The notes beneath the pieces are model-generated. The model did not search any database. It saw nothing but the letters and a program-made list of their open reading frames with translations, and was not told where the DNA came from. A DNA stretch of 64,000 nucleotides. Origin: a virus. Its lineage: Duplodnaviria > Caudoviricetes. Of the stretch, positions 7,123-59,432 are shown one piece after another; position 1 is the stretch's first letter; each line of letters begins with the position of its first letter. Both the position numbers and the translations under genes were made by a program. The stretch is taken from IMG/VR virus record IMGVR_UViG_3300006805_000023; one strand, given 5' to 3'.

Positions 7123-8247
7123 ATGACCTCCCGTTATCAGGACCCCAAAATCGCCGAGATCTTCTCGGAAGACCGCAAGTATACCCTCTGGCTCCTCATC
7201 GAGGAGGCCTTGGTTAAAGCCCTCGCTCCGGAGGATGTCAGCAGACCGTTCTCGTCCTTCATCCAGGGGCTCCAGGGTGTTAATCTGACCAGCTTCATCA
7301 ACGCCTGCAAACACGAGGAGCAAGGTACCAACCACGACGTCGGGGCGTTCCTGAACGTGCTGGAAGCCAGGGCTGACGGCTGCGTTTCTACCTTCCTGCA
7401 TCGCGGCTTCACATCGTCCGATGTGGTTGACACTGCGACCAGTCTGCAGATTCATGCTGCCCTCAGGCATATCGAGTGGCTCAAACACGACTTCAAGGAG
7501 GCCATCACGAACTCTGGAGACGCCGCGTGCGTCGGCTATACCCACGGGATGCCAGCCGAGGCGATGTGCCTCAGTGCGCGCTGGCAGCGCTGTTTCAACG
7601 AGCTGCGCGACCTACCACGGATCAAGCCGCATCTGACTGGACCACTCGGAGACGCCAAGCATCTTGACATCGACACCAGGATCGAGCTGGCACGACTTCT
7701 CGGTTTCCATAACGATGGTGGAAAAGGCAGAGCGCCAGCCCAGCCCAACTACATGCAGTGCTCGGAGCGGTCGGACTTTGCCAGACTGGCGTCGTCCATC
7801 GCGATCAACGGGAGCGTGCTTGCCAAGATGGCGCTCGACATGCGCCTGTTAGTGTTCAAGGGCGAAATGGGACGGGAAAAGGGGCACCACGAAATGGGCT
7901 CATCCGCGATGCCTCACAAAACCAACCCAGCTGATCTCGAAAAGGTTTGTGGTCTGGCCCGTGTGTTACGCGGCAACGCCATGGTCGCCATGGAGAACAT
8001 TGAGCTCTGGTTGGAGCGCGACATCAGCCACAGCTCGACCGAGCGCATGTGGCTTCCCGACTCCTTCCACCTTTACTGCCACATGTTGACCATTATGACC
8101 AAGGCCGTCGTGAACTACAAGCCGACCCACGAAATGGGAGAGGCTCTAGTTGATAATGAGAAGGACCTGCACACCGCAGCCAACGTGGTTCTGCTGCAAA
8201 AGCAGGGGATGGGACGCCGTGCCGCTTGGCTCAAAGTCAAAGGTTAA
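7123..8247 (+). CDS. purB: Adenylosuccinate lyase family protein (short, 374 aa)
   Basis: TNHDV, FTSSDVVDTA, GYTHG, signature SSAMPHKTNP, WLERDISHSSTERMWLPD. Confidence 0.9.
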   Translation: MTSRYQDPKIAEIFSEDRKYTLWLLIEEALVKALAPEDVSRPFSSFIQGLQGVNLTSFINACKHEEQGTNHDVGAFLNVLEARADGCVSTFLHRGFTSSDVVDTATSLQIHAALRHIEWLKHDFKEAITNSGDAACVGYTHGMPAEAMCLSARWQRCFNELRDLPRIKPHLTGPLGDAKHLDIDTRIELARLLGFHNDGGKGRAPAQPNYMQCSERSDFARLASSIAINGSVLAKMALDMRLLVFKGEMGREKGHHEMGSSAMPHKTNPADLEKVCGLARVLRGNAMVAMENIELWLERDISHSSTERMWLPDSFHLYCHMLTIMTKAVVNYKPTHEMGEALVDNEKDLHTAANVVLLQKQGMGRRAAWLKVKG

Positions 8248-12477: not shown

Positions 12478-14058
12478 ATGCTGCCCTCCACCTCTCCCGT
12501 CCCCTCCCCACACGATCTGGTTTACCTTGAGCTGATGCGCCGTATCCGAGCGCACGGTGACTACCGGATGGAACGCACCGGCACTGGTGCCTATTCGTTG
12601 TTCGCCCAGCAACTGCGCTTCGACCTGACGGACGGTAGCTTCCCGCTGCTGACTACTAAGAAGGTCCACCTGCGCTCGATCATCCACGAGCTGCTCTGGT
12701 TCCTGAAGGGCGACACCAACATCAAGTACCTCAACGACAACGGCGTGACGATCTGGGATGAATGGGCCAACCCGGACGGCGACCTAGGACCTTGTTATGG
12801 CTATCAATGGCGTCAATGGGGGGAGTGGTCCACTCAGCGTTTGGAAAAGAAGGCACCTGTCGTTAAACGTCTGGAGGATGAAATCCCGCCTTTCTGCGAC
12901 TACGATGTTTCCCTCCCTGAAGCCCCGGTCATTACCGATGCTGGCAAGGACGAGCGCAACCGCGCTCTCGTAAAGGTCGTGTTTCCACGTTCCTGCTACT
13001 CGTACACGATTCGAAAGGACCACGCCGAGAGGGGAGTGCGCGACCCCTATGCACCGTCGAAGTGCGGAGTTGGCTGTCTCGGCGAGGATGAGAGGACGCT
13101 TGGGATTCCGGAGACAGTCCTCAAAAACCTCATCGCTTGCTGGAACAAAATGATGGAACGCTGCTACGATCCGAAGTGCAAGGAATACAGGTTCTATGGT
13201 GCCATCGGAGTCAAGGTGTGCCGTCGCTGGCTCTGCAGATCCGCCTTCCTGAGCGACGCCACCAAGCTCCCGTGGTTTGAGCAAAAGTCGAAGGATCTGG
13301 CTGGATACCAGCTAGACAAGGACCATCTGGGAGACAGCACTTATTACTCGCCGACCACCTGCGCTTGGGTTCCTGAGTGGGTTAACTCGGCTTACGCTCA
13401 TACGCAGCCCTTCGTGGCGACAGCTCCGGACGGCACAGAGTATTATCACATTTCGCCTAGCGTGTTTGGCTCGATGCATCAATTGTCGGGGCATTCGATC
13501 TGCCGTTGTTTGCGTGGTGAGAGGCCTCACCATTTCGGCTGGAAGTTCTGCCCTGTTGAGGATCGAGGTCTGCGCTTTAGCTCCCCCACTGATCAGATCA
13601 AGCAGCTGGTCGAGGGCATCGTCAAAAGCCCTTACGGGAGACGCCACATTGTGTCGGCCTGGAATGTGAAAGACTTGCCCACGATGAAGCTCCCACCCTG
13701 CCATTGCCTGTTCCAATGCTTCGTCTCCTCGAAGGGCCGCCTGAGCCTCCACCTTTACCAGCGCTCCGCTGACTACCTGCTGGGCGTCCCCTTTAACATC
13801 GCGAGCTATGCGTTGCTGCTGCTCATGCTGGCTCAGGCCACTGGGAACAAGCCAGGCGAGCTGGTCATCACGTTCGGCGACGTCCACCTCTACTCCAACC
13901 ATCTGGAGCAGGCCGACCTCCAGCTGTCCCGCGCCCCGTTCGGAGCGCCTCGAATGGAGATCGGTGACTCAAAGGACATCTTCGGTTTCAAGTATGAGGA
14001 CTTCAAACTGCTGGACTACACCTCCCATGCTTCCATCAAGGCCGCCATCGCCGTTTAG
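12478..14058 (+). CDS. thyA: Thymidylate synthase with a large in-frame insertion
   Basis: ERTGTG, FPLLTTKKV, ELLWFLKG, IWDEW, DLGPCYGYQW, RRHIVSAWN, LPPCH, YQRSAD, GVPFNIASY, DVHLYSNH. Confidence 0.95.
   Translation: MLPSTSPVPSPHDLVYLELMRRIRAHGDYRMERTGTGAYSLFAQQLRFDLTDGSFPLLTTKKVHLRSIIHELLWFLKGDTNIKYLNDNGVTIWDEWANPDGDLGPCYGYQWRQWGEWSTQRLEKKAPVVKRLEDEIPPFCDYDVSLPEAPVITDAGKDERNRALVKVVFPRSCYSYTIRKDHAERGVRDPYAPSKCGVGCLGEDERTLGIPETVLKNLIACWNKMMERCYDPKCKEYRFYGAIGVKVCRRWLCRSAFLSDATKLPWFEQKSKDLAGYQLDKDHLGDSTYYSPTTCAWVPEWVNSAYAHTQPFVATAPDGTEYYHISPSVFGSMHQLSGHSICRCLRGERPHHFGWKFCPVEDRGLRFSSPTDQIKQLVEGIVKSPYGRRHIVSAWNVKDLPTMKLPPCHCLFQCFVSSKGRLSLHLYQRSADYLLGVPFNIASYALLLLMLAQATGNKPGELVITFGDVHLYSNHLEQADLQLSRAPFGAPRMEIGDSKDIFGFKYEDFKLLDYTSHASIKAAIAV
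12820..13590 (+). mobile_element. HNH-type homing endonuclease-like module inserted in frame in thyA
   Basis: About 257 aa between QWRQW and DQI; W..M..RCY...Y..YG..GV.VC.RW, LDKD...Y.P.TC.W...N and a C-terminal NUMOD1-like segment; visibly more A/T at third codon positions. Confidence 0.75.
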
Positions 14059-15526: not shown

Positions 15527-16819
15527 ATGGCACCCGCTACAACACCACTCCCACAAAACGTCCTCCCACCACGCGTCCTCAGCCCCGGCAAGATCGCCGC
15601 AGTCCTGGATGCTGGCTACGGCTCCTCTTCCAAAGGCCTCGTGTCGGCCTGGATCACCAAGAACGAGCGCCCTGACTTCCTGCTCACCGCCAACGGTCGC
15701 AATTCCTCGCACACCGTGGTGGATAACTCCCTGAAGGCCTCCCGCGAGGCCATGACACCATGCCAGCTCAAGGGCGAGTTCGTCTTCAAGGTCCTGCCGG
15801 TCGGAGCCTTCTACAACAAGTGGAAGGGCTACAACCCGATCATCTACATTGGCCCCGGTGCCGCTTTTACGGTCGAGGACCTCGTCAAGGAAATGAAGGC
15901 CTGCGAGCTGGACAAAACGCAGGTCTGGGTCCACCCGCTGGCATCGGTCGTCACGGAGGCCGACATCGGCTATGAAAACGGCACTTGGGACTTCGACGGC
16001 AACCCACGCCCGCAGATCGACCACGACTCCGGCACCACCAAGCACGGCACCACGGGCTCCGGCGTCGGAGCAGCTCGTGCCAAGAAGTCTCTGCGCAAAG
16101 GCAAGCAGTGGTATGATGTCTCCGACCAGCCTACGATGGGGCAGAGCGGCCTGATGTTCGCCGACACCTTCGAAGAGGCCGTCCTGAAGCGCCTGGCTCT
16201 CGGCAAGACCGGCCTGCTGGACGGTTCTCAGGGTTACCTGCTGAGCCTCTACGGGAAGTTCTTCCCACACTGCACTTCACGCCCCGTCACCCTGGCCTCA
16301 TTCTTCGCCGACATCAACCTCCCGGTCAGTGTGATCGGCAACGTCTGCGCGGTGGCCCGCACCTTCCCAATCCGGATCGCCAGCGTGCGCTATTTCCTGG
16401 ACAACCAGCCCGTCACCCTCGCCGAGAAGGTCGAAGCGGAGTCGAGGGGCCTGTTCGTCAATACTGTGGACTCCAACTCCGGTGGCTGGTATCAGGACCA
16501 ACGCGAGTTGACTTGGGAGCAGGTCAGCGAACAGGCCGGACGCCACATCGAGCCTCAGCTCACCAGTCTGACCAAGCTGCCACGTCGGATCGCCACGTGG
16601 TCCAAGGCCGCGATCCGCGATTTCCTGCTGCACAACGCCCCGCCGTGCGGCTGCAAGACTTACTTGTTTGTGACCTTCACGAATTATCTGAAGGGCTCCG
16701 AGATGAAGCACTGGATGCACCAGAACATCCATGAACTGGACGACGCCGTAACCGAGGTGCTACTGTCCGACTCCCCGGAGACTGACAGCGTGCTGCCACT
16801 GGTGCGGGACTTTGAGTGA
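15527..16819 (+). CDS. purZ: PurZ-type adenylosuccinate synthetase homologue (putative 2-amino-dA synthetase)
   Basis: DAGYGSSSKG (Ser where PurA has the Asp of GDEGKG), NSSHT, KVLP.G, HGTTGSG, SQGYLLSL..FFPHCTSR, ARTFPIR, NSGGWYQDQRELTWEQ, LTSLTKLPRR, TFTNYL. Confidence 0.8.
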   Translation: MAPATTPLPQNVLPPRVLSPGKIAAVLDAGYGSSSKGLVSAWITKNERPDFLLTANGRNSSHTVVDNSLKASREAMTPCQLKGEFVFKVLPVGAFYNKWKGYNPIIYIGPGAAFTVEDLVKEMKACELDKTQVWVHPLASVVTEADIGYENGTWDFDGNPRPQIDHDSGTTKHGTTGSGVGAARAKKSLRKGKQWYDVSDQPTMGQSGLMFADTFEEAVLKRLALGKTGLLDGSQGYLLSLYGKFFPHCTSRPVTLASFFADINLPVSVIGNVCAVARTFPIRIASVRYFLDNQPVTLAEKVEAESRGLFVNTVDSNSGGWYQDQRELTWEQVSEQAGRHIEPQLTSLTKLPRRIATWSKAAIRDFLLHNAPPCGCKTYLFVTFTNYLKGSEMKHWMHQNIHELDDAVTEVLLSDSPETDSVLPLVRDFE

Positions 16820-43077: not shown

Positions 43078-43413
43078 ATGAAGCTCCTCCACCCCTCCCC
43101 GCAGAACATCATCGCCCCTCACCTCACGATCCGTGGCATGCACTTCGACAAGGTCTCCCGGACCTTTTCGGTGGACGCCAGCCAGCTCTCCCCTCAGAAC
43201 TCCGGCCATTTCATGGGCCAGCTCTACAACGACGCTATGGACGTCGGCGTCGTGCTCGACAACCCTCACACCAACCGCTCAGTGCCGTTCTTCCTCAAAA
43301 ACGTCGATGAGCGCGAGGGCGACGTCATAGGATGGCGCTTCGAAGTGCTCGGAGAAACGGCATCCCGCCACCCCGAGCTTGCTGGTCTCAAACTCCTGAT
43401 CGTCAACACCTAG
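43078..43413 (+). CDS. Hypothetical phage protein
   Basis: LYNDA.DVG...EGD..GW.F. Confidence 0.75.
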   Translation: MKLLHPSPQNIIAPHLTIRGMHFDKVSRTFSVDASQLSPQNSGHFMGQLYNDAMDVGVVLDNPHTNRSVPFFLKNVDEREGDVIGWRFEVLGETASRHPELAGLKLLIVNT

Positions 43414-43425
43414 TTTACACCACTC

Positions 43426-44301
43426 ATGAAAAACACACGCCCAAGCAGGGATCCCAGCCCGACCCCGCAGAAAAACACACGCCCGACCGGAGAACTTAAC
43501 TCGCTTTTCCACGAGATCAACCAGTTCCGTCACCGTCTGGTGCAATGCAAGGACTGGGAGGTTGCTGACACCAACCCAGCGCTCGAACTGGCCGAGTATG
43601 AGGCCGCTATGCCGAAGAGTCTGACCAAGTCGCAGGCACGGACCGAGCTGGCGTCCAAGTTCACGCGCACCAAGGAAATCCTGGCCGACCTGCGCAAGGT
43701 GTGGGGCGACAACAAGCATCTTGACATCCTGGCCACCCACTATACCCACTATCAGTCATGGGCTGACGTGTGCGCCGACCCGAGTCCACCGACGTTCGAC
43801 ATGCGAATCCCAGCCCTGCGGTTCATGGCCGAGGCCTATGACGTCTGGGCTCGTGCCAGCGGGAAGGGCGTGTCGCTCAAGCCTTACTTTGGCTACTTCG
43901 ACGGCCCCGGCTACAACACGTCAACCCTGGAGGCCGAGATCACTGAGCCGATCCGGACCGAGGATGCACGCCGCGAGATCGAAGCCGCGATCCGTGACCG
44001 TAGCCTGCAAGTCCCGCTCGATTTCATCACGGATACCAAGGCTTTCATCACGGAGCGCGCCCGCCAGATCAATTCCTCCATGCAGCACCGCTGGCTTCAA
44101 GTTTACAACAAGATCGAACAACACCACATCGAGGAAATGCGCAAGGAAATGGTGGAAGAGCACGGCCTTGACCGGTTCAAACCAGAGACGGTTGCTAAGC
44201 TTCATTCTCTGACTTGGGAAAACGGTCACTCCAGCGGTTTCTCTGAAGTGAAGTCCCAATATCGTGACCTCGTCGAGCTGCTGGAGACTACCCTTGACTG
44301 A
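43426..44301 (+). CDS. Hypothetical protein
   Basis: ORF track. Confidence 0.75.
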   Translation: MKNTRPSRDPSPTPQKNTRPTGELNSLFHEINQFRHRLVQCKDWEVADTNPALELAEYEAAMPKSLTKSQARTELASKFTRTKEILADLRKVWGDNKHLDILATHYTHYQSWADVCADPSPPTFDMRIPALRFMAEAYDVWARASGKGVSLKPYFGYFDGPGYNTSTLEAEITEPIRTEDARREIEAAIRDRSLQVPLDFITDTKAFITERARQINSSMQHRWLQVYNKIEQHHIEEMRKEMVEEHGLDRFKPETVAKLHSLTWENGHSSGFSEVKSQYRDLVELLETTLD

Positions 44302-56626: not shown

Positions 56627-57358
56627 ATGAGCCACTCACCTAAGACTGAAGGACAACTCCGCGCCTGGCACTGGCGCACCGGCCAGCCTCACTCGACTGT
56701 CAGAACAGTCGATCCCCAATGGAACCTCGAACTGATGTTCAGGCGACTGATCAAGGACGTTAACTTCAGAGACGTCGTGAAGCTCAGCGACTGCGTTTCT
56801 GGAGTGTTTACGGGAGGCGAAAAGGCCGCCCCTCTGCAGTTCGACGCTTTAAGTGACGGGCTGTGGAAGGTCAGCATGAAGGCGACAACGGAACAAGGAG
56901 CCGAGATCTGGGTCTGCTTTTGCTACGAGCGCAACTTCCGTATGGCGGTCGAGAGAATCTGCGACAGACTTAACCCGATGGGTGGCTACGGGCACGGCTA
57001 CACAACGGCTTGTGTTGAAGCCTCCAAGGATGGCATGCTGATCGACCCGCTGGTGATCTGGAAATACGAGGACGCCGAGCGCGCCATGAAGGAGGCTGGC
57101 AACGCACTCGCCTGCGAGGTCACGGGCTACTTCGAGCAGGTCCCGGAGGCCATGACCAACCGAGGCTGGCTCAACGATCTCTCCAGCGACCTCCCTAAGA
57201 AGTGGGTTGGGCAACGCAAGATCTACGAGATGATGGAGCGGATCGAGGACCTGAATCCGACGGTGCGTCAGCCCGTGAAGCGCAAGGGCATGGCCGAGGA
57301 GGGGGAGGACTCGCAGACCGAGGGGTGGTTCAATGTCATTCGTCCTGGCAAGACTTGA
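56627..57358 (+). CDS. Hypothetical protein
   Basis: ORF track. Confidence 0.7.
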   Translation: MSHSPKTEGQLRAWHWRTGQPHSTVRTVDPQWNLELMFRRLIKDVNFRDVVKLSDCVSGVFTGGEKAAPLQFDALSDGLWKVSMKATTEQGAEIWVCFCYERNFRMAVERICDRLNPMGGYGHGYTTACVEASKDGMLIDPLVIWKYEDAERAMKEAGNALACEVTGYFEQVPEAMTNRGWLNDLSSDLPKKWVGQRKIYEMMERIEDLNPTVRQPVKRKGMAEEGEDSQTEGWFNVIRPGKT

Positions 57359-57383
57359 CAAACACTAGAGTCTGTGTTATCTT
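57355..57383 (+). promoter_or_regulatory. Sigma70-type promoter, leaderless geometry; probably also drives the tRNA
   Basis: TTGACA-17-TATCTT-6nt-ATG 57390. Confidence 0.8.
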
Positions 57384-57389
57384 TCCCAC

Positions 57390-57647
57390 ATGACCGCTCC
57401 CACCCTTCCCGATCACGATACAACCGGCCTCACCCTTGAAACCAACGAGCAGCGTGCTCGTCGGGCTGGTAAAGGTCACAAACTCAATTGCCTGATCACC
57501 GCGACTAGTCCAAGTCCGACCTTCCGGAAGTTCTCTTACAACTTCCGGTTCGACCCAACGGGAAAATCCAAGGAAGGTGATGGCATGAAGGAAGACGGCT
57601 ACTTCATCCGCGTTGTCAAGGTGATCCCAAAGGAGGAACTCGTTTAA
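57390..57647 (+). CDS. Hypothetical protein
   Basis: ORF track. Confidence 0.65.
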   Translation: MTAPTLPDHDTTGLTLETNEQRARRAGKGHKLNCLITATSPSPTFRKFSYNFRFDPTGKSKEGDGMKEDGYFIRVVKVIPKEELV

Positions 57648-57655
57648 CCATTTTC

Positions 57656-57730
57656 GCCTGAGTAGCTCAGTGGCAGAGCTGGAGTCCCTAAAACTCTTGG
57701 TCGCCGGTTCGAATCCGGCCTCAGGCACCA
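57656..57730 (+). tRNA. tRNA with CUA anticodon (amber suppressor type), C at position 33, encoded CCA
   Basis: Acceptor GCCTGAG/CTCAGGC, D arm GCTC/GAGC, anticodon stem GGAGT/ACTCT with loop CCCTAAA (CTA at 57688-57690), T arm GCCGG-TTCGAAT-CCGGC, A73, CCA. Confidence 0.9.
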
Positions 57731-57731
57731 C

Positions 57732-57738
57732 TAGTTAT
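57732..57738 (+). promoter_or_regulatory. Putative late promoter box TAGTTAT
   Basis: 6 nt upstream of ATG 57745, directly after the tRNA CCA. Confidence 0.6.
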
Positions 57739-57744
57739 CGCACA

Positions 57745-58278
57745 ATGAACAAAGTCGAAGCACTCGTCGAACGCCTCCTAGCCTCAGGCGACCCACGCGC
57801 CAACCTGGAAACCCTCGCCGCACAGGTGCAGACCTACCCGGAGGTCAAGCGGGCCGTGGTCGGCAAGAGAGGCGTCGAGTTCATGATCGGCGCTGGTGCG
57901 AACTGCAGCGAATTCGAGATGATCCCGAAGGGAGACAGGGTTGACCTCTATTCGACTCCGGCAGTTGGCGGTAAGAACTGGCTAGGCCTCTTCGACTTCA
58001 TCGCTGCCATGTCGGCTGCCCTCAAACATCACCAGCAGGCACAGCCCAGGGTCAGCGAAGCAAAGACCGACAACCGTGCCACCCACTACGAGGTGTGCTG
58101 GCAGAACCGCCATTACCAGGACAAGAGACAGCTCTTCAAGGGGCCTGAATCTGAGAAGAATCGTGCTTCAGCCGAACGGTTCAAAAAGAAACTCGAAGAC
58201 AACGACGCCAAGGACAAATATGGCGACATCCGTGGTCGAGTCACCATCAGGGCTATCGTCCCGGAGCCACTCGCGTAG
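57745..58278 (+). CDS. Probable virion-associated protein
   Basis: Start MNKVEALVERLLAS; late box upstream. Confidence 0.7.
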   Translation: MNKVEALVERLLASGDPRANLETLAAQVQTYPEVKRAVVGKRGVEFMIGAGANCSEFEMIPKGDRVDLYSTPAVGGKNWLGLFDFIAAMSAALKHHQQAQPRVSEAKTDNRATHYEVCWQNRHYQDKRQLFKGPESEKNRASAERFKKKLEDNDAKDKYGDIRGRVTIRAIVPEPLA

Positions 58279-58330
58279 CCTCTGTTGAGAGCGTCGCGCC
58301 CCTCACAAACGTCCCCCACTCGAACTCCTC

Positions 58331-58561
58331 ATGACTCCAGCTGACAGGCTCGTCGAAACCCTCCTGACTGAAAACCCGGCCCTCTGGTACCATAGGCACC
58401 ACGTCGGGACGGAGAACCCGCACGAAGAGGGGTATGGTGAGGACGACTGTGACTGTGACGTCTATGAGTTCCCCAGCGACGACCTCCAGAAAAAGTTCCT
58501 CGACGAAGTCGGTGGGAAGCCCCATCCGCTTGGTGGGAAGCGCGCCATCATGACGAAATGA
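58331..58561 (+). CDS. Small protein with ADRLVETLLTE N-terminus
   Basis: ORF track. Confidence 0.7.
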   Translation: MTPADRLVETLLTENPALWYHRHHVGTENPHEEGYGEDDCDCDVYEFPSDDLQKKFLDEVGGKPHPLGGKRAIMTK

Positions 58562-58959
58562 AACATAGCTTACCAACGGCTGATCAGCTGGTTGAGACAC
58601 TCTTGGCTGAGCCCAGTCTGCTAACGCCTCTCCTCTCCACTTTCGCCGACAAGGTTCTGCTGGTTGGTTCTCGTGGTTCAGGGCGTCAGCGCCCAGACAG
58701 CGATGTTGACCTCCACATCAAGGACATGATGGAGACCGATGAGACCTACGACGCCATCACGGCTTTTCTCGAAAAACAGGGTGTTCAGTTTGGTGGTGAC
58801 AAGTATGGTGCTGGCAGTATTATCGTCCCCGAACAGGACGGTTACCCGGTCTCAGTCGAGTTCGGTTTCTGGGACGGCATCCCAGAAGACCCACAGTGCG
58901 CCCTGGTTGATGTTTTCGGGGTCAAGCTCCAGGCACCGCAGGCAGACCCAGTCCGTTAA
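58558..58959 (+). CDS. Minimal nucleotidyltransferase (Pol-beta superfamily) with ADQLVETLLAE N-terminus
   Basis: LLVGSRGSG..RPDSDVDL (GS...DxD). Confidence 0.8.
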   Translation: MKHSLPTADQLVETLLAEPSLLTPLLSTFADKVLLVGSRGSGRQRPDSDVDLHIKDMMETDETYDAITAFLEKQGVQFGGDKYGAGSIIVPEQDGYPVSVEFGFWDGIPEDPQCALVDVFGVKLQAPQADPVR

Positions 58960-59006
58960 CCCCCATTCTTGACCAGATGTCAAGTCTGGTTTTCTTTTCC
59001 ACCGTC

Positions 59007-59432
59007 ATGAAAAACACAACACCCGCACCGCACACGTAGGTCCTGCCCCCGCAAGGGGACTCCACCCTCCGTCTCTACGCAGTGGTCGTCACCGACCACG
59101 CGATGACTCCCGGAAAGTCGGCCTCTCAAGCAGGCCATGCTTACCTGGGAGCCTTCATTCAAGCCACCGGACACGACGCCGGTTTCAGGCAGCAAGCACA
59201 GGAATACGCCTCCGAGCAACCCGGCACCAAAGTGTGTCTGCAGGCATCGCTCGACGAGGTCCTGCGCCTCAAGGACCGGGCCGACCAGCTCGGCCTCCCC
59301 AATTTCCTGGTAGTCGATAGCGGCCACCAGGCCTTCAACAATGGACTCGAAACCACCACGGCTTGGGGTTTCGGACCATGCACCAGAGAACAGGCCAAGC
59401 CGATCGTCAAGAAACTCAAACTGCATCCCTAA
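59007..59432 (+). CDS. pth2: Peptidyl-tRNA hydrolase 2 family protein; in-frame TAG at 59037-59039 if the ATG at 59007 is used
   Basis: LRLYAVVVTDHAMTPGKSASQAGHA...TKVCL....E...L...A..LGLP.FLVVDSG......TT.A.G.GP......I...LKL. Confidence 0.85.

What the first reader, a model, noticed from the sequence alone, without database searches (positions are those of the whole stretch)
57656..59432. Amber-anticodon tRNA plus a Pth2 gene with an in-frame amber codon: candidate phage-controlled readthrough switch
Seen: a full cloverleaf with anticodon CUA (57688-57690). 1.3 kb downstream, ATG 59007 reads MKNTTPAPHT-TAG-VLPPQGDSTLRLYAVVVTDHAMTPGK, and the conserved first strand of Pth2 (LRLYAVV) lies after the TAG with no ATG between them. 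The GTG at 59082 would cut into that strand. The window is otherwise standard code 11, with many true TAG stops. Inference: Pth2 production may depend on the phage suppressor tRNA, coupling peptidyl-tRNA recycling to suppression. C33 (normally U33) is unusual and may reduce decoding efficiency.
Basis: partly seen in the sequence, partly recalled or inferred. Interest (0 to 1): 0.85.

Follow-up and report, generated by a model that had tools for sequence, protein, structure and literature searches.

The report
Stop-codon-gated phage Pth2 with suppressor tRNA
A large phage carries its own tRNA that reads the stop codon UAG and, 1.3 kb downstream, a tRNA-recycling-type enzyme gene (Pth2) with UAG as its 11th codon; about 80 distant relatives keep the same early stop, and its type changes together with the tRNA's anticodon, so the enzyme is probably made only when that tRNA overrides the stop.

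Summary
A well-formed tRNA with anticodon CUA lies at 57656-57730; its anticodon loop has C where U33 is normal. The Pth2 gene opens at ATG 59007, has nine more codons, then TAG at 59037-39, and continues in frame into the Pth2 fold.

The TAG is not an error. Relatives at 84, 78 and 59% identity keep ACG-TAG-GTN. In 82 of 90 non-redundant homologues the first in-frame stop upstream of strand beta1 is TAG (26% expected, p about 1e-38).

About 60 loci have a tRNA-CUA just upstream on the same strand. The stop type follows the anticodon:
- TAA with tRNA-UUA in one contig, which has two TAA gates.
- TGA with tRNA-UCA in Agrobacterium phage Atu_ph07 and in one other contig.
- TAG with tRNA-CUA in Sinorhizobium phage Phosso.

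In this window a phage promoter motif (17 copies, 0.12 expected) puts ATG 59007 where 16 other genes have their start. GTG 59082 would remove 5 of the 8 beta1 residues. The window otherwise uses the standard code.

I found no published description. This scan has reported the same cassette before on other DNA. The biological purpose and the inserted amino acid remain unknown.

The parts
57355..57383 (+). Phage sigma-70-type promoter (TTGACA-17-TATCTT) in front of the 85-codon gene and the tRNA
   Evidence: Consensus scan. One of 17 exact copies of TTGAC-N18-TANNTT in the window, against 0.12 expected. An ATG follows 6 nt after the -10 element.
57390..57647 (+). 85-codon gene of unknown function that ends 8 nt before the tRNA; probably the first gene of the unit that carries the tRNA
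   Evidence: ORF list. No Pfam or PHROG match.
57656..57730 (+). Suppressor tRNA, anticodon CUA (57688-57690), loop CCCUAAA (C33 at 57687), discriminator A73, CCA encoded
   Evidence: ARAGORN. Rfam tRNA 65.6 bits. An 86.6 kb contig of a relative, under 90% alike on the laid pieces, differs from it at one D-loop base only.
57745..58959 (+). Three small genes between the tRNA and pth2 (57745-58278, 58331-58561, 58558-58959). All start with an ...LVE(R/T)LL N-terminal tag. The third has a weak nucleotidyltransferase motif. Variable cargo, not part of the conserved module.
   Evidence: ORFs. Pfam NTP_transf_2 at E 0.004, below the cut-off. Tag. In the relative's contig, 901 bases here (58066-58968) are replaced by 531 other letters. 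In most related loci the tRNA lies 12-300 nt from the gate.
58969..58997 (+). Weak variant of the phage promoter (TTGACC-17-TTCTTT), ending 9 nt before ATG 59007. It overlaps a terminator-like hairpin at 58971-58991.
   Evidence: Motif register. Kept in the relatives L171 (TTGACC-17-TATCTT-9-ATG) and L172 (TTGACA-17-TTCTTT-9-ATG). Hairpin.
59007..59036 (+). Leader: ATG plus nine codons (MKNTTPAPHT), probably the true start on a leaderless or nearly leaderless mRNA
   Evidence: 16 of 17 promoter copies have their gene's ATG 5-11 nt after the -10 element. The leader length changes by whole codons in relatives (10, 9, 8 codons) and stays in frame.
59037..59039 (+). In-frame amber codon (the gate), in the context ACG-TAG-GTC
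   Evidence: Sequence. TAG at this place in 82 of 90 non-redundant homologues; codon before is Thr in 57 of 82, codon after is Val in 53 of 82, next base is G in 66 and A in 13 of 82.
59040..59432 (+). Pth2-fold body (130 codons plus TAA). Strand beta1 (LRLYAVVV) is at 59067-59090. GTG 59082 is the first canonical start after the gate. ATG 59103 is the conserved internal Met where gene callers start.
   Evidence: Pfam PTH2. PDB sequence match to archaeal Pth2 2zv3, E 2e-6. AlphaFold pLDDT 91.5. Foldseek TM 0.82-0.92 to 1wn2, 2zv3 and 1xty. The database entry P0001 is called from ATG 59103, 109 aa.

Best explanation
This is one copy of a conserved two-part phage module: a suppressor tRNA and a Pth2-fold hydrolase gene whose reading frame carries the matching stop codon a few codons after its start.

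In this phage the tRNA(CUA) is probably transcribed behind the 85-codon gene from the promoter at 57355. The pth2 mRNA probably starts at or just before ATG 59007, from its own weak promoter. Ribosomes translate MKNTTPAPHT and meet UAG. If release factor 1 wins, a 10-residue peptide is released and no enzyme is made, because there is no usable start downstream. If the charged phage tRNA(CUA) wins, an amino acid goes into a disordered N-terminal tail and the whole 141-residue Pth2 is made. Enzyme output would then follow the activity of the suppressor tRNA. In the relatives with two gates in tandem it would follow roughly its square.

Shown here: the anatomy, the conservation of the gate, the adjacency to the tRNA, and the co-variation of stop type with anticodon.

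Inferred: that the tRNA is made and charged, that read-through is the only route to the enzyme, and the purpose. My best guess for the purpose (about 40%) is that hydrolase supply is tied to the amount of stop-codon read-through in the infected cell. A feedback role of the enzyme on the suppressor itself is the main alternative (about 20%).
For: (1) The gate is conserved. The first in-frame stop upstream of beta1 is TAG in 82 of 90 non-redundant homologues, against 26% for other long open frames in the same loci (binomial p about 1e-38). The closest relatives (84, 78, 59% identity) all read ...ACG TAG GTN.

(2) The stretch after the gate is translated. Between the window and L172, the eight codons for DSTLRLYA differ at five synonymous positions and no replacement positions. 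28 of 82 homologues have no ATG, GTG or TTG between the TAG and the conserved Met. 69 of 82 have none early enough to keep beta1.

(3) The start lies before the gate. The promoter motif puts ATG 59007 in the same register as 16 other genes. In the cultured phage Phosso the leader ATG has AGGAG 8 nt upstream; in Atu_ph07 it has AAAGG 7 nt upstream. 61 of 82 homologues have an in-frame ATG 2-10 codons before the TAG.

(4) A cognate tRNA is present. tRNA-CUA lies upstream on the same strand in about 60 loci, mostly 12-300 nt from the gate. The 53 unique suppressors have 41 different anticodon stems with 90% of positions paired, so the stems are kept by compensating changes.

(5) Stop type follows anticodon. 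L003/L063 have two TAA gates and an adjacent tRNA-UUA. Atu_ph07 has a TGA gate and its only suppressor is tRNA-UCA (PMC6102473). The contig of L018 has a TGA gate and a tRNA-UCA 2.6 kb upstream. Phosso has a TAG gate and two tRNA-CUA. The contig of L001 has a TAG gate and a single tRNA-CUA.

(6) The gate context differs from ordinary stops. The base after the gate is a purine in 79 of 82 homologues. It is a pyrimidine after 15 of the window's 21 ordinary TAG stops.

(7) The product looks like a working enzyme: Pth2 fold, with the GK lysine and the D-S-G aspartate invariant.
Against: Nothing is experimental. No RNA run covers the locus, so expression, processing and charging of the tRNA are unknown, as is the inserted amino acid (one search was uninformative).

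C33 replaces the nearly universal U33 and may weaken this particular tRNA.

Here the tRNA is 1.3 kb away, behind three unrelated genes, not adjacent as in most loci.

The promoter before ATG 59007 lacks the A at position 2 of the -10 element and overlaps a terminator-like hairpin, so the transcript start is a guess.

A suppressor strong enough to make useful amounts of enzyme would also read through the 21 TAG-ended genes in the window and the host's TAG-ended genes, which should be costly.

Non-gated Pth2 genes exist in other tRNA-rich phages: XacN1, which does have CUA suppressors, and also phiCbK and phiM19. The link is therefore specific to one clade.
Confidence: 0.75

Rival explanations
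1. The leader is an independent 10-codon upstream ORF that ends normally at TAG. Pth2 is translated separately from GTG 59082, or from ATG 59103 as the gene callers have it, giving a shortened but working enzyme. The tRNA would be unrelated.
For: GTG 59082 is a canonical start codon in frame. The public protein collection holds the gene as a 109-residue protein from ATG 59103. The tRNA is 1.3 kb away.
Against: GTG removes 5 of 8 beta1 residues and ATG 59103 removes the whole strand. Archaeal Pth2 starts exactly at this strand. There is no Shine-Dalgarno sequence before either codon. The codons before the GTG are under protein-level selection. 28 of 82 homologues have no start codon at all in this stretch. 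This reading does not explain why the stop type follows the phage's suppressor anticodon.
Confidence: 0.1
2. Termination and re-initiation: ribosomes end at the TAG and restart at once on the next codon (GTC here, usually GTT) without a canonical start codon. The upstream ORF would serve only to deliver ribosomes.
For: The codon after the stop is strongly conserved as GTN (53 of 82) or ATT (5 of 82), one base away from known start codons. The leaders are very short.
Against: GTT, GTC and GTA are not known bacterial start codons (general knowledge). Re-initiation would not care which stop codon is used, yet TAA, TGA and TAG each go with the matching suppressor tRNA. 19 loci carry two same-type stops in tandem, separated by up to about 35 codons with no start between them.
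Confidence: 0.05
3. The phage re-assigns TAG more widely, as in the TAG-recoded (code 15) phages, and pth2 is just one of many recoded genes lying outside this window.
For: Two unchecked first-reader notes on the same genome report one in-frame TAG inside the intein of the DNA polymerase gene, 31 kb before the window. Phage-encoded suppressor tRNAs are the known tool for such recoding (10.1101/2021.08.26.457843).
Against: In 64 kb, 21 of about 94 genes end in TAG with the next gene following. No other gene has coding signal across a TAG. TAG is not depleted. The polymerase genes of two cassette-bearing relatives have no internal stops.
Confidence: 0.05
4. Assembly error, strain polymorphism or a decaying pseudogene.
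Against: The TAG is kept in independent assemblies from other samples at 84, 78 and 59% identity and in 82 of 90 homologues. The fold and the catalytic motifs are intact.
Confidence: 0.02

Closest known systems
prfB (release factor 2) autoregulation in bacteria
   Same: An early in-frame stop codon in a translation-factor gene. Whether the full protein is made depends on the competition between termination and an alternative decoding event at that codon.
   Different: prfB escapes by a +1 frameshift and its own product reads the stop, which gives negative feedback. Here the frame is unchanged, the alternative decoder is a dedicated phage tRNA, and no link between the enzyme and the gate has been shown.
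Stop-codon recoding in phages with phage-encoded suppressor tRNAs (TAG or TGA recoded crAss-like, Lak and other phages; Borges et al., bioRxiv 10.1101/2021.08.26.457843)
   Same: A phage-encoded suppressor tRNA makes in-frame stop codons readable, and this is proposed to regulate phage gene expression.
   Different: Those phages carry in-frame stops in many genes, mostly late and lysis genes, and use the stop rarely as a terminator. This phage uses the standard code throughout the window, and one gene family is the conserved client. That paper does not mention a hydrolase.
Orphan suppressor tRNAs of standard-code phages (for example Xanthomonas phage XacN1, PMC5852040; Agrobacterium phage Atu_ph07, PMC6102473)
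   Same: Large, tRNA-rich phages with CUA or UCA suppressor tRNAs and a Pth2 gene.
   Different: The XacN1 authors state that they found no target gene for its suppressors. The Atu_ph07 authors suggested only that there are several potential targets among its many UGA stops, and named none. Here the Atu_ph07 Pth2-like gene (annotated as a hypothetical protein from its internal Met) is shown to have an in-frame TGA that matches its UCA tRNA. The XacN1 Pth2 is of another clade and is not gated.
Archaeal and eukaryotic peptidyl-tRNA hydrolase Pth2 (PF01981; 2zv3, 1wn2, 1xty, human Bit1 1q7s)
   Same: Same fold (TM 0.82-0.92), same length, and the GK and D-x-G motifs are kept.
   Different: A phage clade with its own signature (SQAGHAYLG) and a disordered N-terminal tail that holds the stop codon. 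Activity and substrate are untested.
Lambda bar minigenes and peptidyl-tRNA drop-off (from general knowledge)
   Same: Very short ORFs that end in a stop codon (here often Met-Thr-stop in relatives) are the classic source of dropped peptidyl-tRNA, which is the substrate of Pth.
   Different: The bar minigenes are separate from any Pth gene. Here the mini-ORF is in frame with the hydrolase itself. No drop-off has been measured.

Membership tests
Pth2 peptidyl-tRNA hydrolase (Pfam PF01981) | Sequence matches the family model above its curated cut-off | tested here: met
   61.6 bits against a cut-off of 23, E 1e-16, profile positions 2-114 of 115.
Pth2 peptidyl-tRNA hydrolase (Pfam PF01981) | Pth2 alpha/beta fold | tested here: met
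   AlphaFold pLDDT 91.5, pTM 0.85. Foldseek TM 0.82-0.92, rmsd 1.3-2.0 A to 1wn2, 2zv3 and 1xty.
Pth2 peptidyl-tRNA hydrolase (Pfam PF01981) | Conserved lysine of the GK motif and aspartate of the D-x-G motif (reported as catalytic in archaeal Pth2; the residue roles are recalled from the literature, not checked here) | tested here: met
   K25 and D92 are invariant in 25 homologues. They align with GKGK and DAGH of 2zv3.
Pth2 peptidyl-tRNA hydrolase (Pfam PF01981) | Hydrolyses peptidyl-tRNA | not testable with these tools
   Needs an enzyme assay or complementation of a pth(ts) strain.
Nonsense suppressor tRNA | Canonical cloverleaf with an anticodon complementary to a stop codon | tested here: met
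   ARAGORN gives CUA. Rfam tRNA 65.6 bits, all stems paired.
Nonsense suppressor tRNA | Standard 7-base anticodon loop with U33 | tested here: not met
   The loop is CCCUAAA, with C33. C33 is shared only with L077 among 53 unique relatives and is kept in the related contig of run X1.
Nonsense suppressor tRNA | Expressed, aminoacylated and active at UAG | not testable with these tools
   No RNA coverage. The amino-acid identity could not be assigned.
Stop-gated Pth2 plus suppressor tRNA cassette (recurrent in this scan; unpublished as far as I could find) | In-frame stop within about 2-10 codons of the start, before beta1 of the Pth2 fold | tested here: met
   TAG is codon 11 and lies 10 codons before beta1.
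Stop-gated Pth2 plus suppressor tRNA cassette (recurrent in this scan; unpublished as far as I could find) | Suppressor tRNA of the matching type encoded by the same phage, upstream on the same strand | tested here: met
   tRNA-CUA lies 1307 nt before the TAG on the + strand. Unlike most loci, three genes lie between them.
Stop-gated Pth2 plus suppressor tRNA cassette (recurrent in this scan; unpublished as far as I could find) | Gate context Thr(ACR)-stop-Val(GTN), with a purine after the stop | tested here: met
   ACG-TAG-GTC.
TAG-recoded phage (genetic code 15 type) | Many genes with in-frame TAG, and TAG rare as a true stop | tested here: not met
   21 of about 94 genes end in TAG. pth2 is the only gene in the window with a TAG inside a continuous coding frame.
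prfB-type autoregulatory recoding | Programmed frameshift at the in-frame stop, with the product acting on that stop | tested here: not met
   The frame continues unchanged across the TAG. Whether the enzyme acts on the gate cannot be tested here.

The most novel reading that the evidence does not exclude
The suppressor tRNAs that puzzle annotators of standard-code phages exist mainly to run a self-contained translational switch. The Pth2-fold enzyme is made only above a threshold of suppressor activity, sharpened to a square law in the one-in-five relatives with two gates. It then acts back on the suppressor's own peptidyl- or aminoacyl-tRNA, or on the peptidyl-tRNA dropped at the gate. That would hold stop-codon read-through in the infected cell at a set level. 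In this genome the same tRNA may also be needed to complete the DNA polymerase, whose intein is reported to carry one amber codon.
Probability: 0.2. Interest if true: 0.9.

Novelty: new variant of a known kind. Interest (0 to 1): 0.78.

Why it matters
Suppressor tRNAs turn up in many phages that use the standard genetic code. Published genome papers say that no target gene could be found for them (XacN1, PMC5852040; the Stenotrophomonas phage Summit abstract listed). A conserved client gene, with the stop type following the anticodon, would give these tRNAs a first concrete function.

It would also show that gene callers systematically truncate this family: it is stored as proteins of 105-109 residues that lack their first strand.

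It would add a natural, portable stop-codon gate that is easy to test in cultured systems (Phosso with Sinorhizobium, Atu_ph07 with Agrobacterium). It may be an early stage on the way from the standard code to a recoded stop codon in phages.

Tried and rejected
- Megablast of the locus against 50,697 phage records found no match. The phage has no close cultured relative.
- Assigning the tRNA's amino acid by similarity to 144 other tRNAs from the related loci gave only generic D-arm and T-arm matches. The discriminator base is A in 29 and G in 16 of the suppressors, so the family may not share one identity.
- I looked for an RNA structure after the gate that could stimulate read-through. Mean z is only -0.57 against mononucleotide shuffles. 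The window's small CCCC-GCAA-GGGG hairpin is kept in the 84% relative but not in the 78% one. I rejected it as a general feature.
- Read check and expression. The one DNA run holds a relative, not this phage. Three runs labelled RNA-Seq gave one 202-base contig over part of the tRNA and no reads elsewhere. This is no evidence either way.
- I tried to walk from the window's edge to the DNA polymerase amber codon noted by other first readers. The only contig returned is a 12 kb relative that ends too early, so that note is untested.
- The polymerase genes of two cassette-bearing relatives are open, without stops.
- Non-gated Pth2 genes in XacN1, phiCbK, phiM19, two mycobacteriophages, Kikimora and LR756511 start normally. 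The gate is a property of one clade, not of all phage Pth2 genes.
- A fourth base pair between C33 and the G after UAG is conceivable. Most relatives have U33 with the same G, so it cannot explain the context.
Full report
**1. What is there**

ARAGORN finds a single tRNA in the 64 kb window, at 57656-57730 on the + strand, with anticodon CUA. The Rfam tRNA model scores it at 65.6 bits against a cut-off of 29. All four stems pair, the T-loop is canonical and CCA is encoded. Its anticodon loop reads CCCUAAA, so position 33 is C instead of the nearly universal U.

Downstream, ATG 59007 opens MKNTTPAPHT. TAG follows at 59037-39, and the same frame continues VLPPQGDSTLRLYAVVVTDHAMTPGK... to TAA at 59430-32. 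The part after the TAG matches Pfam PTH2 at E 1e-16, from profile position 2. It matches archaeal Pth2 structures by sequence (2zv3, E 2e-6).

An AlphaFold model has mean pLDDT 91.5, and Foldseek gives TM 0.82-0.92 to 1wn2, 2zv3 and 1xty. In the model the first strand is LRLYAVVV. GTG 59082, the first canonical start after the TAG, is the sixth residue of that strand. The eight residues before the strand are disordered. So the stop lies in a floppy N-terminal tail where any amino acid should be tolerated.

**2. The window uses the standard code**

A simple codon-score gene call of my own gives about 94 genes. Of these, 40 end in TGA, 33 in TAA and 21 in TAG, and most TAG stops are followed directly by the next gene. 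A scan of every TAG for coding signal on both sides found only chance cases: two neighbouring gene pairs that share a frame, and shadows of genes on the other strand. This is not a TAG-recoded phage, at least in these 64 kb.

**3. The TAG is conserved, not an error**

A first search of viral contigs found a 199 kb contig whose Pth2 is 50% identical and reads ATG AAA GAT ACA TAG GTT ... LRLYALVR in one frame. The protein database holds many relatives as proteins of 105-109 residues starting at the conserved internal Met (MxPGK). That is where a gene caller is forced to start if a stop lies upstream.

I then collected 130 related loci from viral and metagenome contigs and walked upstream in frame in each. 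After removing near-duplicates, 90 remain. Results for these:
- The first in-frame stop before beta1 is TAG in 82, TAA in 5 and TGA in 3.
- Other long open frames in the same loci are preceded by TAG 26% of the time (binomial p about 1e-38).
- The codon before the TAG is Thr in 57 of 82 (ACG 36, ACA 20).
- The codon after it is Val in 53 (GTT 40).
- The next base is G in 66 and A in 13.
- 61 of 82 have an in-frame ATG upstream, mostly 2-10 codons away.
- 28 of 82 have no ATG, GTG or TTG between the TAG and the conserved Met, and 69 have none early enough to keep beta1.

The closest relatives, from independent samples (84, 78 and 59% identity), read ...CAC ACG TAG GTC...CAC ACG TAG GTT and ...CAT ACG TAG GTT. 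Between the window and the 78% relative:
- The eight codons for DSTLRLYA, which lie before GTG 59082, differ at five synonymous sites and at no replacement site.
- The leader changes length by whole codons (10, 9, 8).
- CTG 59043 is not kept; it is CCG and TCC in the two closest relatives.

This stretch is therefore translated in this frame, and translation must come from upstream of the stop.

**4. Where translation starts in this phage**

None of the genes around the locus has a Shine-Dalgarno sequence. The window instead holds 17 exact copies of TTGAC-N18-TANNTT, with the extended consensus TTGACAAnnnnnnnAGnnTGTGTTAnnTT. Shuffled sequence gives 0.12. In 16 of the 17, an ATG that opens a real gene of 51-305 codons follows 5-11 nt after the -10 element. 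That fits leaderless or nearly leaderless mRNAs.

A weaker variant of the motif (TTGACC-17-TTCTTT) ends 9 nt before ATG 59007. The 84% relative has TTGACC-17-TATCTT-9-ATG and the 78% relative has TTGACA-17-TTCTTT-9-ATG. ATG 59007 thus sits where this phage puts its start codons. An internal GTG with no ribosome-binding site would be a poor start on such an mRNA.

In the cultured relatives, which do use Shine-Dalgarno sequences, the leader ATG has one: AGGAG 8 nt upstream in Phosso and AAAGG 7 nt upstream in Atu_ph07.

The tRNA lies 8 nt behind an 85-codon gene that has a strong copy of the promoter (57355), so it is probably made from that transcript.

**5. The tRNA partner, and co-variation**

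ARAGORN on all loci finds a tRNA-CUA on the same strand upstream of the gated gene in about 60 of them, usually 12-300 nt before the TAG. The 53 unique suppressors have 41 different anticodon stems with 90% of positions paired, which indicates selection for a working tRNA.

The decisive point is that the stop type follows the anticodon.
- The 203 kb contig behind L003/L063 has the gate ...TTC ACG TAA ATC..., a second TAA 20 codons earlier in the same context, and a tRNA-UUA 112 nt upstream of the gate proper.
- Agrobacterium phage Atu_ph07 reads ATG ATT GGC GAA CAC TTT TGA ATT... into the Pth2 fold. Its only suppressor is tRNA-UCA, confirmed here among 29 unique tRNAs and reported by its authors (PMC6102473).
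- The contig of L018 has a TGA gate and a tRNA-UCA 2.6 kb upstream on the same strand.
- Sinorhizobium phage Phosso, a relative of Atu_ph07 with the gene in the same neighbourhood, has ATG AAG TAT TAG GTT and two tRNA-CUA. No other suppressor type was found in the 30 tRNA loci that were scanned.
- The contig of L001 has a TAG gate and one tRNA-CUA, 27 kb away.

All three stop types are matched. Re-initiation or an internal start would not predict this.

**6. Further features of the family**

- 19 of 87 non-redundant loci have two same-type stops in tandem, for example M-K-P-T-stop-V-(17 residues)-F-T-stop-D-Q-T-L-R-L-Y. Two gates make the output depend on the square of suppression efficiency, which points to a threshold device rather than a leak.
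- The gate context differs from ordinary stops. In the window, the base after the 21 ordinary TAG stops is a pyrimidine in 15. After the gate it is a purine in 79 of 82 homologues. In E. coli a purine after UAG favours suppression; this is general knowledge, not tested here.
- tRNA-Thr(CGU), which reads the preferred ACG before the gate, is the second most common tRNA in these loci (12 loci). I leave that as an observation.
- Not all phage Pth2 genes are gated. XacN1, phiCbK, phiM19, two mycobacteriophages, Kikimora and LR756511 start normally. The XacN1 authors wrote that they could not find targets for its CUA suppressors (PMC5852040).

**7. What is special about this copy**

- The tRNA and the gate are 1307 nt apart. 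Three small genes lie between them, all opening with an ...LVE(R/T)LL tag. A first-reader note on this genome describes that tag on many proteins elsewhere.
- An 86.6 kb contig of a relative in a wastewater run keeps the tRNA and pth2 but has different DNA between them. Within the tRNA it shows one change, in the D-loop, and none at C33. The two conserved parts therefore stay together while the cargo between them turns over.
- C33 occurs in only one other locus (L077). Its effect is unknown.
- The leader has 10 codons, at the long end of the usual range.

**8. Mechanism and its limits**

The best-supported reading is a translational gate. The ribosome starts at ATG 59007, and at UAG either release factor 1 ends a 10-residue peptide or the charged phage tRNA inserts a residue and the 141-residue enzyme is completed. 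I put this at about 0.75.

The reason for such a gate is open. Possible purposes:
- Hydrolase supply follows the level of read-through, as damage control. I put this at about 40%.
- The enzyme acts on the suppressor's own peptidyl- or aminoacyl-tRNA, or on peptidyl-tRNA dropped at the mini-ORF, which would close a feedback loop like that of prfB. I put this at about 20%.
- The gate acts as a timer that delays the enzyme until the phage tRNAs are working.

Points against a strong gate:
- A suppressor efficient enough to be useful would read through 22% of this phage's own stops.
- C33 may weaken this tRNA.
- No RNA or protein data exist.

**9. Literature and earlier scan notes**

Full-text searches found no paper linking a Pth2 gene to an in-frame stop or to a suppressor tRNA. 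The main paper on stop-codon recoding in phages does not mention a hydrolase. A 2026 survey of jumbo phages discusses suppressor tRNAs only in connection with alternative genetic codes.

This scan has reported the same cassette on other DNA: 66 notes in at least 44 genomes. Those reports include the co-variation of stop type with anticodon and the comparison with prfB. I re-derived both points independently here.

Two unchecked notes on this genome report one amber codon inside the DNA polymerase intein, 31 kb before the window. If true, that gene would be a second, essential client of the tRNA. I could not reach that DNA. The polymerases of two relatives have no such stop.

**10. Verdict**

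This is a further member of a conserved module that is, as far as I could find, unpublished. It also has its own features: a spaced layout, leaderless promoter evidence for the start codon, and a C33 tRNA.

Noticed in passing
window, 17 sites, e.g. 5752, 10127, 36588, 39457, 57355, 60270, 61910: A phage-specific promoter-like motif, TTGACAAnnnnnnnAGnnTGTGTTAnnTT, occurs 17 times against 0.12 expected. 16 copies are followed by a gene's ATG 5-11 nt after the -10 element. Many genes of this phage therefore appear to be leaderless and lack Shine-Dalgarno sequences.
   Followed up: partly
window 57745-58959: The three small genes between the tRNA and pth2 all begin with a shared tag (MNKVEALVERLL, MTPADRLVETLL, MKHSLPTADQLVETLL). 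These are the only three real genes in the window that carry it. A relative's contig has other DNA in this place.
   Followed up: partly
window 15527-16819 and 7123-8247: A 430-residue adenylosuccinate-synthetase-like protein has as its best solved relatives the phage PurZ structures (6fm1 group E 3e-25, 7odx E 3e-20). A Lyase_1 (PurB-like) gene lies nearby. The phage may make 2-aminoadenine (Z) DNA. Other first readers have already noted this.
   Followed up: partly
window 43078-43413 and 43426-44301; also 2900-2127 and 2117-1704 (minus strand): Two gene pairs are in the same frame, separated only by a TAG and 3-4 codons. At 43411 the codon before the TAG is ACC (Thr). Read-through by the suppressor would fuse each pair. 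This could be chance (one in three).
   Followed up: no
L003/L063, L071, L073, L112 and 15 other loci: About one in five related loci carry two in-frame stops of the same type in tandem before the Pth2 fold, each in the Thr-stop-Val context.
   Followed up: partly
related loci (e.g. L090, L094, L099, L103, L107, L128, L131): tRNA-Thr(CGU), which reads the ACG codon preferred just before the gate, is the second most frequent tRNA near the cassette (12 loci). It often lies on the opposite strand just beside the cassette.
   Followed up: no
L009, L013, L104, L106, L092, L096, L028: ARAGORN calls several tRNA-like genes with four-base anticodons (gcaa, agta, gaaa, ggaa) a few hundred bases downstream of the gated pth2 in related phages.
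   Followed up: no
window 12478-14058: The thymidylate synthase gene is 526 codons long. Its Pfam match comes in two stretches, the last covering residues 370-526, so the protein carries a large insertion or extension.
   Followed up: no
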